A DNA stretch of 64,000 bases from Candidatus Spongiisociaceae bacterium (GCA_965243165.1 OZ251535.1:2810797-2874796); one strand, 5' to 3'. Shown: positions 37,361 to 43,952, numbered from the stretch's first letter. Numbers and translations: made by a program. The notes: generated from the letters alone by a model not told the origin.

Positions 37361-38750
<1,390 letters not shown>

Positions 38751-38770
<20 letters not shown>

Positions 38771-39056
38771 CGGCGGGCGGCTCGTCCTGCTCCTCGGCGA
38801 TGATCTGCGACTCTCGGACGGCCACCGCCACCCGGCCGTTCTCCGGCCACAGGAACCGCCAGGCTCCGGTGGGAACCGCCCAGAACCGCCGCCCGGTGTC
38901 GATGTCCCGCAGCGACAGGGCGTCGCTGGTGGACTCGGTGCCCGCCGGCACCAGCAAACCCGACCGCGTGGCCGACTCCTCCAAGAGGTGACCCACCCGC
39001 CACCCCGGCAGGATCCGATACCCGTTGGGACTTCGATGTTCGTTCTTGGCAGCCAT
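38751..39056 (-). CDS. Small hypothetical protein, weakly GroES-like
   Basis: TRSGLLVPA and VRESQIIA resemble GroES motifs; overlaps the hflX start. Confidence 0.45.
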
Positions 39057-39141
39057 TCCTTGCCCTGCACCCGCCGGGTCCAGGGTAGCCGCTCGGCGGC
39101 CCTCCCCATCCACCCGCCGGCATATATGTATCCTGCGGGGC

Positions 39142-39236
39142 GGAGGCGAACGAGCGCCTGGTGGGCTCCCTGGTCTTCAAAACCAGTGGGGGTGCGAAAG
39201 TGCCCCGGCGGGTTCGATTCCCGTCCGCCTCCGCCA
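39142..39236 (+). tRNA. selC: tRNA-Sec (anticodon TCA)
   Basis: GGAGGCG...CGCCTCC-G-CCA acceptor, CTGGT-CTTCAAA-ACCAG anticodon arm, long variable arm, GGTTCGATTCC T arm. Confidence 0.95.
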
Positions 39237-39719: not shown

Positions 39720-39930
39720 CCCTGATTGTTCACGAGAGTGGGGGCGGACAGATAAAATAAGCGCCCGCATCCCTTTGACCTGGGGTGATAACAGTGAGAC
39801 AACTGTCTGATCAGAAAAGTGTGGTTCATCCAATGGGTAAACGCCGCCGGTTCGAGGTTTGGGATGCCCAATCTGGATGAACCGGCGCGGGCGGCGGCCC
39901 GCCCCGCGCGGACATGAACAATCAGAGCTG

Positions 39931-40542
39931 ATGGCCGAAGACGGAGGTGCGGCCTTCGCCCGCCTCTTCTCGCAGCGGCGGGAAGATCTCGGCTTGTCGG
40001 TGGTGGACATCGCCGTGCAGACCGGCCGGCCCATCGAGGTGGTGGTGGGCTGGGAGCAGGGCTTGTCGGCGCCCGGCGCCGAAGACCTCCCGCAGGTGGC
40101 CCAAGCCCTCAAGCTCCCGATTCCCCTGCTCGAGGAGGCCTCGAGGCGGGCGGCCGAGCACCGGCCGCCTCCGGACGAACCGCCGCCGGGGGCGGAGGAC
40201 ACCGGCGCCCCAGAAGTTTCCTTCGAGGAGGCGCCCGCCGCCCTGCCGGACGACAGCTCCGCAGATGTCTTCGCGCCCGACGGCCGGCCCAGCATCTCCT
40301 CCTATCTGGACAGCATCCGCACCCGGGTGCGCGAGGCGGCGGCCCGCAGACGGCGCCGCACTCAGGCGCCGGCCGCCCAACCTTCCTATCTGGAGGACCG
40401 AGACGAGTTGGTTACCTACCGCCTGCGGATGGTGCTGACGGCGGCCGGGGTTGCCGTCCTGGCCCTGGTGCTCCGTTGGTCGCTGGGCGGCCTCGGCTCG
40501 GCTGTCACCGACCTCTGGGAGGCCCTGACCGCCGCCCTGTAA
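39931..40542 (+). CDS. XRE-family HTH protein with C-terminal membrane anchor
   Basis: RREDLGLSVVDIA..VVGWEQG..P; hydrophobic C-terminal helix. Confidence 0.7.
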   Translation: MAEDGGAAFARLFSQRREDLGLSVVDIAVQTGRPIEVVVGWEQGLSAPGAEDLPQVAQALKLPIPLLEEASRRAAEHRPPPDEPPPGAEDTGAPEVSFEEAPAALPDDSSADVFAPDGRPSISSYLDSIRTRVREAAARRRRRTQAPAAQPSYLEDRDELVTYRLRMVLTAAGVAVLALVLRWSLGGLGSAVTDLWEALTAAL

Positions 40543-40630
40543 CCCGCCCTCCCGCCCGGCCCGCAGCCCCAGAAATCCCCGGCCCCGCGCAATGGTTGCC
40601 GGGGCGGCCGGACTTCGGCTAACATCTCCT

Positions 40631-40916
40631 GTACCAGAGAAAGGAGGTGATCCGACTTGTTAGACAGTTCTTGTAGGACCCTGGAGGTGGCCGGGCGCTA
40701 AGCGGCCGCTGGCTGCTTTCCGGGGAAGGCCCCTATCGGCCCCCCGGACAGGTGGCGACTCCAACTCGGACCACCCGATCTCCCTGTCCGCATGTTGGTC
40801 CTCATGCGGCGCCGGCGAAGAGGGCAGACAGCCCCCGGCGAAGTACAGGCCTGATCGAACGATCTCTGAAAGTCGACTCGAGTCCGGGGCTCCCAACGGG
40901 GCCCCGGATTCTTTTT
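40631..40916 (+). ncRNA. Putative structured small RNA with 14-codon ORF
   Basis: TTGCCG-N18-TAACAT promoter, several stems, terminator with U-run; family not recognised. Confidence 0.6.
40883..40916 (+). terminator. Rho-independent terminator
   Basis: TCCGGGGCTCCC-AAC-GGGGCCCCGGA then TTCTTTTT. Confidence 0.8.
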
Positions 40917-40945
40917 CGGCGCGGCGGGCCCGCCCCCGCTCTCCG

Positions 40946-41899
40946 TTACGGCCCGCCCAAGCCGTGGCGGGCCAGGTATTCGTCGTTCCAGATCTTCGAC
41001 AGGTATCCCCGCCCCGAATCGGGCAGCAGCACCACCACCAGTTTGGATTCGTCCTCGGCGGCCGCTTCGAGGGCGGCGTGGAGGGCCATCCCGGCGGACC
41101 CTCCGGCGAGGATGCCCTCGGTGCGGGCCAGCCGCCGGGCCATGGCGAAGGACTGCCGGTCGTTCACCATCACATAACGGTCCACCACCCCCGGATCGAA
41201 GGTCTCAGGCCAGAAGTCCTCCCCCACCCCCTCCACCTTGTATTGGTGGACCTCGTCCTCGGAGGGGGCGGTGAAGATGGATCCTTCGGGGTCGGCGCCC
41301 ACCACCTCCACCCCCGGTTTGCGTTCCTTCAGATAACGGCCCGCCCCGCTGATGGTGCCGCCCGTCCCCACCCCGGCCGCGAAGACGTCCAACTCCCCTC
41401 CGGTCTGCTCCCAGATCTCCGGGCCGGTGGTCAGGTAGTGGGCTTCGGGGTTGGCCGGATTGGAATACTGGTCGGGGAGGTAGGCCCCTTCGATCTCGGC
41501 GGCCAGGCGGCGCGCCGCCCCGTAGTAGGAATCCTCGTCCTCGGGCAGCAGGTCGGTGGGGGTAACGATCACCTCCGCCCCGTAGGCCTCCAAGAGGGCG
41601 ATCTTCTCGGTAGAAACCTTGTCGGGAACGGTGCATATCACCCGGTAACCCCGCACCGCCCCCGCCATTGCCAGACCGGCCCCGGTGTTGCCGGAGGTGG
41701 GCTCGACGATCGTACCGCCCTCCCGCAGCAGGCCCATCCGCTCAGCCCGGTCGATCATGGCAACTCCGATCCGGTCCTTGACCGACCCGGCCGGATTCAG
41801 AAAGTCGAGTTTGGCGGCCAGGTTGCCCGCCGGATGGAGCCGCCCCAACCTGACGACCGGCGTCCCCCCGACTGCCGCCGTTGCGCTTTCATAGATCAT
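40946..41899 (-). CDS. Cystathionine beta-synthase / cysteine synthase family PLP enzyme
   Basis: NPAGSVKDRIG, EPTSGNTG, GVGTGGT, VEGVGEDF, PDSGRGYLSK. Confidence 0.92.
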   Translation of the reverse strand: MIYESATAAVGGTPVVRLGRLHPAGNLAAKLDFLNPAGSVKDRIGVAMIDRAERMGLLREGGTIVEPTSGNTGAGLAMAGAVRGYRVICTVPDKVSTEKIALLEAYGAEVIVTPTDLLPEDEDSYYGAARRLAAEIEGAYLPDQYSNPANPEAHYLTTGPEIWEQTGGELDVFAAGVGTGGTISGAGRYLKERKPGVEVVGADPEGSIFTAPSEDEVHQYKVEGVGEDFWPETFDPGVVDRYVMVNDRQSFAMARRLARTEGILAGGSAGMALHAALEAAAEDESKLVVVLLPDSGRGYLSKIWNDEYLARHGLGGP

Positions 41900-41927
41900 G
41901 GGCACACAGGGTAGACGGCCGGGGAGC

Positions 41928-43952
41928 TCACAGTTGGGAGACCATGGCCTGATAGTCGTCGACCGGGCGGAGGCACACCCCCCGCTCGCAGACATAGGCC
42001 TTGGTCTCGTCGGGATGGAAACGTCCGGCCAGCAGGGGGACCGCTTCGGCGGCGGCGGGGCCGGCGGCGGCGGCCACTATCACGTTGGGCCGGTACTCCC
42101 CCGCCAGACGGGAAGCCCAGTCGAGGGCGTCCGGGCCGGTGATCGCCGCCTCCTTGTAACCCGCTCCGGCGGCGGCCAGCACCGCCAGCAGATGGCCGAC
42201 CGCGCCGGGAGCGGCTTCTATCAGGCGGGCGGCCGCCTTGACGATCTGCTCATAGCGGTCGTAGTAGGAGAAGTCGCCGGTCAGATGGGCGGCCAGCACG
42301 AAGCACTCGGCGGCCAGCGACGCCCCCGAGGCGCTGGGGTTGTCCTGCTGATCGGGCGGTCGCACCACCAACTCGGAGACGTCGGCGGCGCTGGCGAACA
42401 CCACCCCCTGAGGCCCGCCGAAATGGGGTTCCAGCAGGTCGACGAGGCCGAGCGCCGCCTCGAACCATTCCGTTTCTCCGGTGGCCTGGTACAGCTCGAG
42501 CAGACCCAAGGCGTAGGAAGCGTGGTCGTCCAAAAACCCAACCACCGGGGACAGGCCGTTGCTCCAGGTACGCGCCAACCGCCCGTCGGGGCGGCGCATC
42601 TCGCCCAGCACGAACCGGGCGTTGGCGCGGGCCGCCTCCAGATAGCGCCCCTCTCCCAATGCCGCGCCGGCCGCGGCCAGGGCCCGCACCGCCAAGCCGT
42701 TCCAGGCCGTGACTATCTTGTGGTCCAAGCCCGGCCGGATCCTCTCCGCCCGGCGCTCCAGCAACCGGGCCGCGGCCCGCCCGACGGCGGCTGATGCTTC
42801 CTCGTCCGACATGCCGAACCGCTCCGCGACCAGATCCATCGGCAGGGCGGCCGATAGAACGTTGGCCCCCTCGAAGTTGCCGCCCGGAGTAACCCCGAAG
42901 TAGGCGGCCGCCGCCGGCCCGTCTTCCGGGCCCGCCGCCTCATGGAACTCCTCGTGGGTAAAAACGTAGAACTTGCCTTCCTCGCCTTCGGAGTCGGCGT
43001 CCTCGGCCGCGTAGAAACCCCCGCCGGGGTGGGCGAGGTCGCGCAGTATGTATTCGAGGGCCTCCACCGCCGCCCGGCGGTAGAGCGGATCGCCGGCCGC
43101 CTGCCAGGCCCGCAGGTAGAGCCGGGCCAGGTCGGCGTTGTCGTAGAGCATCTTCTCGAAATGGGGCACCAGCCAGATCCGGTCCACTGCGTAGCGGGCG
43201 AAACCGCCGCCCAAGTGGTCGCGAATTCCCCCCCTGGCCATGCGGGTGAGGGTGTTGGCCGTCATGGCGGCGGCGTCGGGCGCCCAAGGCAGGCCGGCGA
43301 TCCGGGTCAGAAACTCCAGAACCGGCGCCTGCGGGAACTTGGGCGCACCGCCGAACCCGCCGTGCTCTCGGTCGAACCGGCGGACGAGGGCGCGGTAGGC
43401 CTGCTCGACCCGCCTTTGGCCGGGCGCCTCCTCGGCGGGGGGCAGAACCGCCCCGATAACCCTGGTCAACTGGGCCGCTTGGCCGAGCACGTCCTCCCGC
43501 CTGTTCTCCCAGGCGTGGTGGATGGCCTCCAAGACCCGCCGGAAACCGGGCATCCCGCCGCGCTCCGCCTTCGGGAAATAGGCGCCGGCGAAGAACGGCT
43601 CGCCCGCCGGGGTGAGGAACACGGTCATCGGCCAACCGCCCCGCCCGCTCATGGCGTTGACCGCATCCATGTATATGGAATCGACGTCGGGGCGCTCCTC
43701 CCGGTCGACCTTCACCGACACGAAGCGCCGGTTGAGGAACCGGGCGGTCTCCTCGTCCTCGAAGGACTCCTTTTCCATCACATGGCACCAGTGGCAGGTG
43801 GAGTATCCCACCGAGAGCATGATCGGGCGGTCGGTGCGCCTCGCCTCGGCGAACGCCTCCTCCCCCCAGGGATACCAGTCCACGGGGTTGCCCCGATGCT
43901 GGATCAGGTAGGGAGAGAGGCCCCGAAGGCCGAGGTCCCTCAACAAAGGCAT
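41928..43952 (-). CDS. YyaL/SSP411-like thioredoxin-domain protein
   Basis: [39 protein letters not shown]. Confidence 0.92.

What the first reader, a model, noticed from the sequence alone, without database searches (positions are those of the whole stretch)
40596..40916. Stand-alone structured RNA with 16-nt perfect complement to the 16S 3' end and a 14-aa ORF
Seen: a promoter (TTGCCG-N18-TAACAT), then AGAAAGGAGGTGATCC (40638-40653), TTG ORF MLDSSCRTLEVAGR* (40657-40701) containing a second GGAGGTGG, at least four stems (CCGGGG/CCCCGG, CGGACAGG/CCTGTCCG, CCGCATG/CATGCGG, CGCCGG/CCGGCG) and a terminator. No downstream gene lies on this strand. Knowledge: actinobacterial 16S ends GGATCACCTCCTTTCT, and normal SD pairing is much shorter. 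Inference: an unannotated ~285-nt RNA that may trap 30S subunits, be stabilised by a bound ribosome, or encode a micropeptide.
Basis: partly seen in the sequence, partly recalled or inferred. Interest (0 to 1): 0.75.

Follow-up and report, generated by a model that had tools for sequence, protein, structure and literature searches.

The report
Ribosome-docking small RNA, known family
This is a real, self-contained small RNA gene whose 5' end pairs with the whole free tail of the ribosome's 16S RNA and carries a tiny translated reading frame, but it is a divergent copy of an already catalogued, functionally uncharacterised actinobacterial RNA (Ms_IGR-5).

Summary
In detail: at 40638-40653 a 16-nt perfect complement of this genome's own 16S 3' end, a TTG-started 14-codon ORF (40657-40701), hairpins and an intrinsic terminator form a ~284-nt stand-alone unit. 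It is not a new family. It is the genome's single, sub-threshold hit (20.3 bits, cut-off 45) to Rfam RF02471 Ms_IGR-5. A model built only from its own order finds accepted members in Mycobacterium, Rhodococcus and Streptomyces. In 133 distinct relatives the extended SD, an in-frame start, the open frame and a stop at a fixed place are all kept. The conserved codons are RNA-structural: they pair with the 5' end, a downstream CCACC anti-SD mimic and a GUCC hairpin loop, each with covariation. Published M. abscessus data show ribosome footprints 53-fold over RNA level. Best reading: a ribosome-docking RNA whose mini-ORF translation unzips a pseudoknotted fold; its output is unknown. This scan met the same family before on other DNA. 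New member of a known kind.

The parts
40596..40625 (+). Putative promoter: TTGCCG (-35-like), 18-nt spacer, TAACAT (-10)
   Evidence: Read. It scores 8 of 12 against the consensus, so one search did not list it. A TAnnnT element is kept at the same distance before the conserved 5' end in the 30 relatives.
40633..40916 (+). Whole RNA (about 284 nt). The 5' end is inferred at A40633 (possible range 40631-40633); the 3' end follows the terminator T-run.
   Evidence: Conservation starts sharply at ACCAGAG. The RF02471 model aligns from 40633. +1 is A in 74 of 76 aligned members. A mapped TSS in M. abscessus lies 2 nt before the model start, and the TSS is +1A in M. smegmatis. The transcript ends were not measured in this organism.
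40638..40653 (+). Extended Shine-Dalgarno: a 16-nt perfect complement of the 16S 3' tail
   Evidence: In 119 of 133 distinct relatives all 16 positions can pair with that tail (Watson-Crick or G-U). 10-11 of the 16 positions were fixed by the search pattern; the free 5' positions vary only as R-G-R-R.
40654..40674 (+). A/U-rich unpaired landing pad holding the TTG start and the first, non-conserved codons
   Evidence: 8 of 21 bases are G or C (read), against 66% for the genome. The sequence varies between relatives, but the frame is kept.
40657..40701 (+). Mini-ORF of 14 codons, TTG start, TAA stop (M/LLDSSCRTLEVAGR)
   Evidence: An in-frame start, an open frame and a stop 15 nt after GAG are kept in 118 of 120 pattern loci and, by inspection of the alignment, in the 30 relatives. 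Stops between SD and GAG by frame: 4, 117 and 86.
40634..40637 (+). P1 5' strand (CCAG), pairs with CTGG at 40681-40684
   Evidence: Helix 1: 96.9% of cells paired, and 3 of 4 pairs show compensatory changes across 76 members.
40675..40680 (+). Pseudoknot 5' strand AGGACC (codons 7-8), pairs with the P6 loop GGTCCT at 40797-40802
   Evidence: GGAC and the loop GUCC are near-invariant. The flanking positions covary: 65 of 97 and 46 of 97 paired, against shuffle means of 43.5 and 27.0, with 0 of 5000 shuffles reaching either value. The next positions outward are not enriched.
40681..40684 (+). P1 3' strand (CTGG, inside the ORF)
   Evidence: helix 1.
40686..40695 (+). P4/5 5' strand GGTGGCCGGG (the second SD-like motif, codons E-V-A-G), pairs with 40765-40775
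   Evidence: helices 4 and 5: 98.4% and 95.3% of cells paired. All 5 pairs of helix 5 show compensatory changes.
40701..40718 (+). P2 hairpin, starting at the last base of the stop codon
   Evidence: helices 6 and 7 (compensatory changes in 7 of 7 pairs).
40720..40747 (+). P3 hairpin (CCGGGG...CCCCGG), variable between lineages
   Evidence: Each relative has a hairpin of different sequence and length here.
40751..40775 (+). Conserved block GGTGGCGACTCCAACTCGGACCACC. Its 3' part (40765-40775) is the anti-SD-like strand of P4/5.
   Evidence: Invariant or nearly so in the 30 relatives. Other classes carry an equivalent block ending in YCACC. In this order it can also pair with the 5' SD.
40783..40787 (+). 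P5 5' strand CCTGT, pairs with ACAGG at 40845-40849
   Evidence: compensatory changes in 5 of 5 pairs.
40788..40809 (+). P6 hairpin CCGCATG / CATGCGG with the conserved loop TTGGTCCT
   Evidence: helix 9 (7 of 7 pairs compensatory). The loop GUCC is kept across the phylum.
40810..40840 (+). P7 hairpin (CGCCGG...CCGGCG), variable between lineages
40845..40849 (+). P5 3' strand ACAGG
40880..40916 (+). Intrinsic terminator (14-pair stem, 4-nt loop, T5)
   Evidence: Relatives have a GC-rich hairpin, mostly followed by a T-run, at the same place.

Best explanation
Window 40633-40916 (+) encodes the single copy, in this genome, of the actinobacterial small RNA family Ms_IGR-5 (Rfam RF02471). It is a divergent form that Rfam's model scores below threshold. 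Shown here: the RNA presents, in an A/U-rich open loop near its 5' end, a Shine-Dalgarno element that can pair with the entire single-stranded 16S tail, followed by a start codon. The rest of the 12-14-codon frame is the hub of the fold. Its codons pair with the RNA's own 5' end (P1), with the loop of a downstream hairpin (a GGAC:GUCC pseudoknot) and with a downstream CCACC anti-SD mimic (P4/5). The stop codon sits at a fixed place, where a terminating ribosome would have the second SD-like motif at initiation-like spacing from its P site. Inferred: a 30S/70S docks very stably on the open loop without unfolding anything. Elongation through the mini-ORF must then unzip the pseudoknot, P1 and P4/5. 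Ribosome loading and passage therefore toggle the RNA between a closed and an open conformation and protect its 5' end. The peptide is a by-product. The downstream output is unknown and is the weakest step; it could be in-trans pairing by the released CCACC/GCGA-type block or GUCC loop, control of the RNA's own lifetime, or a factor that recognises the loaded complex. In this order the released CCACC block can also mask the 5' SD, which would limit loading to one ribosome at a time; this is a lineage-specific inference.
For: Identity. The locus is the best and only RF02471 candidate in the genome (20.3 bits, full model 1-184; the next hit scores 12 bits). It is single copy with my model R1 (189 bits; next 14 bits). 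R1 was built from 30 sequences of this order only. It hits 97 of 100 pattern-selected loci at E<=0.01, full length. These include loci that RF02471 scores at 175.8 (Mycobacterium), 150 (Rhodococcus), 98.5 (Micromonospora) and 85.2 bits (Streptomyces), and an Acidimicrobiales locus that passes the cut-off at 48.8.

Conservation. 40 of 41 relatives have a match, and 65 of 151 genomes sampled across the phylum do.

Translation. In 133 distinct 5' regions the start codons are TTG 61, ATG 45, GTG 17, CTG 9 and ATC 1, placed 5-11 nt after the SD core. All three stop codons are used. Stops between SD and GAG number 4, 117 and 86 in frames 0, 1 and 2, and the four frame-0 stops all lie before the ATG. 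The stop lies exactly 15 nt after GAG in 118 of 120 loci.

Ribosome load. M. abscessus Ms_IGR-5 has RNA-seq RPKM 70.3 and Ribo-seq RPKM 3736.6. In the same table SRP RNA has 1794/490 and 6C RNA has 10836/865 (supplement of PMC4974804). The main text reports footprints in M. smegmatis too.

Fold. 93.6% of cells are paired, against 32-41% with slid partners, and 0 of 500 shuffles reach this. The pseudoknot flanks covary. P5 and P6 are supported.

Independent transcript. It is annotated as an sRNA transcription unit in S. avermitilis and validated by RNA-seq in S. lividans. In M. smegmatis it is +1A and NAD-capped. Neighbouring genes differ between lineages.
Against: No expression data exist for this organism, because no RNA run was listed. 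The Rfam score is below the gathering cut-off. Most phylum-wide loci were chosen with a pattern that already fixed the SD core, GGAC and GAGGTGG, so the conservation of those letters and part of R1's scores are circular. Only the 30 BLAST-derived relatives are free of this. Related sequences are not independent, so the shuffle counts overstate significance. I verified the 16S tail only for this genome. Nothing tested here shows that translation changes the fold in vivo, or what the RNA regulates. The alternative pairing of SD with the CCACC block has no covariation support, is weak outside this class, and rests on predicted energies. Ribosome footprints could in part reflect 30S/70S held by the long SD without elongation.
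Confidence: 0.55

Rival explanations
1. STAB-SD-type stabiliser on an ordinary base-pairing sRNA. The long SD and mini-ORF serve only to keep a ribosome on the 5' end, shielding the RNA from 5'-dependent decay. The regulatory activity lies entirely in the 3' domain and does not depend on translation-driven refolding.
For: The SD starts 6 nt from the inferred 5' end. Ribosome occupancy per RNA is very high in M. abscessus. There is a conserved hairpin loop (GUCC) and a conserved unpaired block. From my own knowledge, 5'-proximal SD-like stabilisers are known in Bacillus.
Against: A pure stabiliser needs neither a start codon, nor a kept frame, nor a stop at a fixed distance, yet all three are conserved. 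The candidate 'seed' elements (GUCC loop, CCACC block) are paired with the ORF itself. This ties them to translation.
Confidence: 0.2
2. Ribosome or 30S sponge. The RNA titrates small subunits, or masks their anti-SD tails, to tune global SD-led translation, in the way 6S or Ms1 RNA titrate RNA polymerase.
For: It is complementary to the entire free 16S tail and is the longest such site in the genome. The family is widespread and single copy. The footprint-to-RNA ratio is extreme.
Against: The RNA level in exponential M. abscessus is modest: RPKM 70 against 10836 for 6C and 31841 for RNase P RNA. That is far too low to titrate ribosomes, although other growth states were not examined. The kept frame and stop imply that ribosomes pass through and leave.
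Confidence: 0.12
3. Micropeptide gene. The product that matters is the 12-14-residue peptide with the conserved ..[R/W/G]-T-x-E-V-[A/V]-x-x end.
For: The reading frame, start and stop are conserved. The C-terminal residues are conserved. Ribosome footprints have been reported.
Against: Each conserved codon coincides with a base-paired RNA element. Where the RNA partner changes, the amino acid changes with it: the residue between T and E follows P1, and the residues after V follow P4/5. The R/W/G position keeps the letters GG, not the residue. The N-terminal half is not conserved.
Confidence: 0.08
4. Cis-acting element of a neighbouring gene: a 3' UTR of the upstream 227-codon ORF, or a shared terminator region with the convergent PALP gene.
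For: It lies 90 nt after the upstream ORF's stop and about 30 nt from the end of the convergent gene. A PALP gene is also a neighbour in 2 other Acidimicrobiia loci.
Against: Neighbours differ between classes. A -10 element is conserved and sequence conservation starts sharply at +1. TSSs have been mapped in two mycobacteria. It has its own terminator.
Confidence: 0.03

Closest known systems
Rfam RF02471, Ms_IGR-5 (Actinobacteria sRNA; M. smegmatis IGR-5 = ncMSMEG15794c, M. abscessus ncMab10731)
   Same: Both are stand-alone RNAs of about 165-285 nt that start with A. They share a 5' extended SD, a 12-14-codon ORF containing GGAC and GAGGUGG, a stop at the same distance, a YCACC strand pairing with the ORF, a hairpin with a GUCC loop, and a terminator.
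   Different: It scores only 20.3 bits against a cut-off of 45. In this order the RNA begins ACCAGAG rather than ACACG, the ORF has 14 codons rather than mostly 12, the CCACC block reads CGACTCCAACTCGGACCACC, and there are extra hairpins (P3, P5, P7). In this genome the SD has A where most members have G, which makes the 16S match perfect. The family's function is unknown; it was called 'validated but yet uncharacterized' in bioRxiv 10.1101/2021.12.14.472595 (passages seen).
STAB-SD 5' stabilisers of Bacillus mRNAs (recalled from my own knowledge; not looked up here)
   Same: Both have an SD-like element near the 5' end with unusually long 16S complementarity, thought to hold a small subunit and protect the RNA.
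   Different: As I recall them, STAB-SD elements lack a usable start codon and sit upstream of a long mRNA. Here a start, a frame and a stop are conserved and there is no downstream gene.
Dual-function sRNAs and leader-peptide attenuators (for example rnTrpL in Sinorhizobium, PMC6614838; search listing and abstract only)
   Same: In both, a short translated ORF is embedded in a structured small RNA, and translation can change the RNA's pairing.
   Different: There is no controlled downstream gene and no amino-acid-sensing codon run. The ORF's conserved codons are structural, and the SD is far longer than usual.
tmRNA, 6S RNA, Ms1, RNase P RNA
   Same: All are abundant or housekeeping structured RNAs that engage the translation or transcription machinery. 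tmRNA also carries a short ORF between pseudoknots.
   Different: There is no match to any of them at E<=10 in 40400-41100. ARAGORN finds no tmRNA or tRNA-like gene there.

Membership tests
Rfam RF02471 Ms_IGR-5 | Score at or above Rfam's gathering cut-off (45 bits). This is the operational criterion for automatic annotation. | tested here: not met
   20.3 bits, E 0.02. This is a limit of a model built from Actinomycetes sequences. It means that automated annotation will miss this locus. I treat it as operational rather than as a biological defining feature.
Rfam RF02471 Ms_IGR-5 | Unique, full-length, co-linear match to the model | tested here: met
   Model positions 1-184 align to 40633-40832. 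It is the best hit in the 3.19-Mb genome, and the next hit scores 12.2 bits.
Rfam RF02471 Ms_IGR-5 | Reciprocal homology through intermediates | tested here: met
   Model R1, built from this order only, hits loci that RF02471 scores at 48.8-175.8 bits (L047, L078, L068, L038, L043, L035, L037) at E 1e-5 to 4e-15, full length. Caveat: those loci were picked with a pattern that shares 21 fixed bases with the model.
Rfam RF02471 Ms_IGR-5 | Shared architecture: 5' SD, mini-ORF, ORF:YCACC helix, hairpin with GUCC loop | tested here: met
   The same helices covary across 76 members from several classes.
Rfam RF02471 Ms_IGR-5 | Expressed as an independent small transcript | not testable with these tools
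   No RNA run is listed for this stretch. Expression has been shown for relatives in S. lividans, S. avermitilis, M. abscessus and M. smegmatis.
STAB-SD type 5' stabiliser | SD-like element not followed by a functional start codon or ORF | tested here: not met
   A start codon lies 5-11 nt after the SD core, and a kept frame follows, in 133 of 133 distinct relatives.
tmRNA / tRNA-like | tRNA-like domain and tag ORF recognised by ARAGORN or Rfam | tested here: not met
   The only tRNA found is tRNA-Sec at 39144-39232.
6S RNA / Ms1 | Match to the Rfam models | tested here: not met
   No match at E<=10 in 40400-41100 and none at gathering score in the window.

The most novel reading that the evidence does not exclude
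Ms_IGR-5-type RNAs are a dedicated ribosome-binding regulatory RNA of Actinomycetota. They capture a small subunit by pairing with the complete free 16S tail and use passage through the mini-ORF as a timer or release step. An internal anti-SD mimic then resets the RNA. This would act as a housekeeping monitor of ribosome availability or of 16S 3'-end integrity, for example one that sets the balance between SD-led and leaderless translation. On this reading, the Acidimicrobiia form found here, with its perfect 16-nt match and an SD-masking alternative helix, would be the clearest natural example.
Probability: 0.15. Interest if true: 0.8.

Novelty: new member of a known kind. Interest (0 to 1): 0.4.

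Why it matters
The locus shows that a catalogued but uncharacterised actinobacterial sRNA extends, below Rfam's threshold, into Acidimicrobiia and related deep classes, so standard annotation misses it there. The comparison also sharpens what any functional study must explain. Selection maintains pairing to the whole 16S tail, a translatable frame with an often weak start codon, and a stop at a fixed distance from a second SD-like motif. The frame itself is the hub of a pseudoknotted fold. This turns 'an sRNA of unknown function' into a set of specific, cheap experiments in non-pathogenic model actinobacteria. If the ribosome-gated switch is real, it would be an unusual way for a cell to read out its own translation machinery.

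Tried and rejected
- Rfam at gathering score found nothing in the region.
- Expression in this organism: no RNA holder was listed for the stretch. I did not use read laying, because the four holders are kept as contigs, which cannot show transcripts.
- Conserved gene neighbourhood: rejected phylum-wide after a Pfam scan of 58 flanking ORFs from the window and 14 loci. Only a class-level PALP/COX15 neighbourhood appeared.
- Literature on function:
  - Searches for 'Ms_IGR-5', 'RF02471', 'IGR-5', 'ncMSMEG15794' and 'ncMab10731' found only annotation-level mentions. So did term combinations on anti-Shine-Dalgarno, sRNA, mycobacteria and sORF.
  - Guessed M. tuberculosis sRNA names gave 0 papers.
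  - The original description (Li et al., RNA 2013) is not held. I saw it only as a reference-list entry.
  - The supplements of PMC5521070 contain no entry for the family. The supplement text held for PMC10454040 (98 characters) contains nothing, so expression changes under cold stress could not be seen.
- Rfam's own consensus pairing of the SD with the ORF 3' end (alignment) was not adopted, because covariation favours ORF:YCACC.
- A tRNA T-arm-like reading of the GGTGG...CCACC block was considered and dropped, since it has a 15-nt loop and no ARAGORN or Rfam support.
- Paralogues in this genome: none.

Full report
**1. The observation**

The sequence is as described. AGAAAGGAGGTGATCC lies at 40638-40653. 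It is the exact reverse complement of the last 16 bases of this genome's single 16S gene. The 16-mer occurs nowhere else in the 3.19-Mb genome. Shuffles of the window give 0.05 matches even when 2 mismatches are allowed.

A TTG-started ORF at 40657-40701 translates to LLDSSCRTLEVAGR*. An intrinsic terminator with a 14-pair stem and T5 lies at 40880-40916. The next gene is a convergent PLP-dependent enzyme. The proposed promoter letters are present but match only 8 of 12 consensus positions, so the scan did not list them.

**2. It is conserved and sharply bounded**

A BLAST of 40596-40916 against 41 genomes of the same order found a match in 40. This covers 31 of 31 high-quality genomes and 22 of 22 genera. 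The one miss is a genome only 72% complete. Two of the 41 genomes (G028, G039) are unpublished.

Conservation begins abruptly at ACCAGAG, 7 nt after a kept TAnnnT element. It runs for about 180-220 nt and is followed in each genome by a GC-rich hairpin, mostly with a T-run.

**3. What family it is**

- Rfam's curated thresholds give nothing here.
- With relaxed thresholds the region aligns end to end (model 1-184) with RF02471 Ms_IGR-5 at 20.3 bits, against a cut-off of 45.
- This is the best hit in the whole genome. The next scores 12 bits.
They come from Mycobacterium, Rhodococcus, Streptomyces, Micromonospora, Nocardioides, Amycolatopsis, Acidimicrobiia, Solirubrobacteraceae and others.
- Two of the 120 are chance matches (L054, L134).
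- I scanned 17 of these loci with Rfam. Eleven matched RF02471 at E<=0.01, ten of them above the cut-off: 175.8 bits (Mycobacterium), 150, 98.5, 85.2, 85, 83.5, 61.6, 48.8 (an Acidimicrobiales MAG), 48.6 and 47.7. One scored 41.9. Six did not match: L036, L054, L057, L077, L082 and L084, five of them Acidimicrobiia or Solirubrobacteraceae.
- A covariance model R1, built only from 30 sequences of this order, hit 97 of the 100 pattern loci that I gave it (of the 120 in hand), all full length. The high-scoring Rfam members were among them.

I conclude that the locus is a divergent homologue of Ms_IGR-5. The caveat is that the pattern fixes 21 bases that the model also contains, so part of those scores is built in.

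R1 finds one copy in this genome. It finds a match in 65 of 151 genomes drawn evenly from the phylum, under stricter filters that lose weak hits (six of those genomes are unpublished). Several whole families had no hit. I cannot tell absence from divergence there.

**4. What is published**

- Ms_IGR-5 was annotated and validated by RNA-seq in S. lividans (PMC8079986, passages).
- It is one of two Rfam-matched sRNA transcription units in S. avermitilis (PMC8780764, passage).
- It carries 'significant ribosomal reads' in M. abscessus and M. smegmatis (PMC4974804, passage).
- In that paper's supplementary ncRNA table, ncMab10731 (164 nt) has a TSS 2 nt before the Rfam start, RNA-seq RPKM 70.3 and Ribo-seq RPKM 3736.6. 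In the same table SRP RNA has 1794 and 490, 6C has 10836 and 865, and RNase P RNA has 31841 and 73.
- In M. smegmatis it corresponds to ncMSMEG15794c (PMC10454040, passage).
- It is among the NAD-capped +1A transcripts and is called 'validated but yet uncharacterized' (bioRxiv 10.1101/2021.12.14.472595, passages).
- The original description (Li et al. 2013) is not held. I saw only its reference entry.
- My searches found no functional study.

**5. The mini-ORF is kept as a reading frame**

I examined 148 loci (30 relatives plus 118 pattern loci), which give 133 distinct 5' regions.

- Every one has an in-frame start 5-11 nt after the SD core: TTG 61, ATG 45, GTG 17, CTG 9, ATC 1.
- Peptide lengths are 12 (79), 13 (8), 14 (43), 15 (1) and 19 (2) codons.
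- Stop codons are TAG 96, TAA 21 and TGA 16.
- Between the SD and the GAG codon there are 4 stops in the ORF frame, against 117 and 86 in the other two frames. The 4 all lie upstream of the ATG.
- The stop is exactly 15 nt after GAG in 118 of 120 pattern loci and, by inspection, in all 30 relatives.

Length differences therefore come in whole codons, and the identity of the stop varies while its place does not. This is hard to explain without translation.

**6. The conserved codons are RNA structure**

On 76 members aligned to R1, 93.6% of cells pair, against 32-41% when partners are slid by 1-3 columns. No shuffle out of 500 reaches the observed values. That alignment is fitted to the model, and relatives are not independent.

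- P1. Bases 2-5 of the RNA pair with the codon(s) just before GAGGUGG. Three of 4 pairs show compensatory changes. The 'variable' residue between T and E simply follows the RNA's 5' end.
- P4/5. GGUGG plus the next five bases of the ORF pair with a downstream strand ending YCACC. All five outer pairs change compensatorily. The residues after E-V follow that strand.
- Pseudoknot. The near-invariant GGAC in the ORF is complementary to the near-invariant GUCC in the loop of hairpin P6.
  - In 97 distinct combinations, the base after GGAC pairs with the base before GUCC in 65 (shuffle mean 43.5).
  - The base before GGAC pairs with the base after GUCC in 46 (shuffle mean 27.0).
  - Zero of 5000 shuffles reach either value.
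  - One position further out there is no enrichment.
- In this order, P5 (40783-87 with 40845-49) and P6 are also supported.

The N-terminal 4-6 codons are unconserved and A/U-rich. In the window this stretch is 38% G+C, in a genome of 66%.

**7. The SD**

All 16 positions can pair with the tail GGAUCACCUCCUUUCU in 119 of 133 distinct sequences. Fifteen can pair in 13 more.

Ten or eleven of these positions were fixed by my pattern. The informative part is the four 5' positions, which vary only as R-G-R-R. This preserves A-U or G-U pairs with the last four bases of the rRNA.

I verified the rRNA tail only for this genome. Nine of the 133 have the perfect Watson-Crick 16-mer, this one included.

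**8. How it most likely works**

Shown:
- An exposed SD, start codon and A/U-rich pad.
- An ORF whose remaining codons are locked in three helices.
- A fixed stop that places the second SD-like motif 5 nt before the P-site codon of a terminating ribosome (counted).
- Very high footprint density in a relative.

Inferred:
- A subunit docks stably without unfolding the RNA.
- Elongation must open the pseudoknot, P1 and P4/5.
- At the stop the ribosome can re-pair with the internal SD.
- The freed CCACC strand is then available to other partners.

In this order the freed strand can also pair with the 5' SD. For 9 relatives, the structure with SD:CCACC is the predicted optimum in 6. It lies between 9.7 kcal/mol below and 4.4 kcal/mol above the covariation-supported one. 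That alternative has no covariation support and is weak in other classes.

I therefore read the RNA as a ribosome-gated conformational switch whose output is still unknown. My confidence is about 0.9 for identity, about 0.45 for this mechanism, and 0.55 overall. The rivals are listed separately: a pure 5' stabiliser, a sponge, a micropeptide and a cis element.

**9. Context and earlier notes**

Neighbouring genes differ between classes, which argues for a self-contained gene.

This scan met the family before on other DNA. Notes e1-5202622 and e1-755541 reached the same family and a similar reading. Note e1-3113094 describes multicopy look-alikes in other Acidimicrobiia. These are unchecked AI notes, and I re-derived everything used here. 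In this genome the RNA is single copy.

**10. Verdict**

The feature is real and strongly selected, and its anatomy is striking. Claims that include unpublished genomes are the tallies and everything built on A1, R1 and A3, which contain L028 from G028.

Noticed in passing
window 39142-39232 (+); L036 1123-1214 (-): A tRNA-Sec gene lies 1.4 kb upstream of the RNA. Another Acidimicrobiia locus also has a tRNA-Sec about 0.8 kb from its copy, on the other strand.
   Followed up: partly
window 37361-39109 (-): This ORF has the HflX-type GTPase domains GTP-bdg_N, GTP-bdg_M and MMR_HSR1. That makes it a ribosome-associated GTPase gene 1.5 kb from the ribosome-docking RNA. The pairing is not seen in other lineages and is probably coincidence.
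   Followed up: partly
window 40946-41995 (-); L036 2266-3492; L072 671-1633: A PALP (PLP-dependent, cysteine-synthase-like) gene neighbours the RNA in this genome and in 2 other Acidimicrobiia loci. COX15/CtaA is also nearby in those two. This is class-level synteny only.
   Followed up: partly
window 39859-40542 (+): A 227-codon ORF ends 90 nt before the RNA. It has no Pfam match at E<=1e-5.
   Followed up: no
L058, L117: Two loci from MAGs labelled Acidobacteria and Terriglobales carry the same unit with a longer, 19-codon ORF. L058 passes the RF02471 cut-off at 47.7 bits. Either the family exists outside Actinomycetota or the contigs were mis-binned.
   Followed up: partly
L047, L052, L055, L069, L082, L104, L115, L116, L148 (CTG); L140 (ATC): In ten mostly Acidimicrobiia loci, the only in-frame codon at the start position is CTG or ATC. 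Family-wide, TTG is the commonest start, at 61 of 133. This is an unusual bias towards weak start codons behind a maximal SD.
   Followed up: partly
G000 genome, one further site on the minus strand: Apart from the RNA and the 16S gene, one more site in the genome carries a 13-nt complement of the 16S tail (counts). I did not locate it.
   Followed up: no
A2 column 1; M. smegmatis IGR-5: The first base of the RNA is A in 74 of 76 aligned members. The M. smegmatis member is reported to be NAD-capped at a +1A. A 5' NAD cap might therefore be a family trait.
   Followed up: no
It shares 17 of 62 short words with this RNA and may be an expansion of the same family. This genome has one copy.
   Followed up: partly
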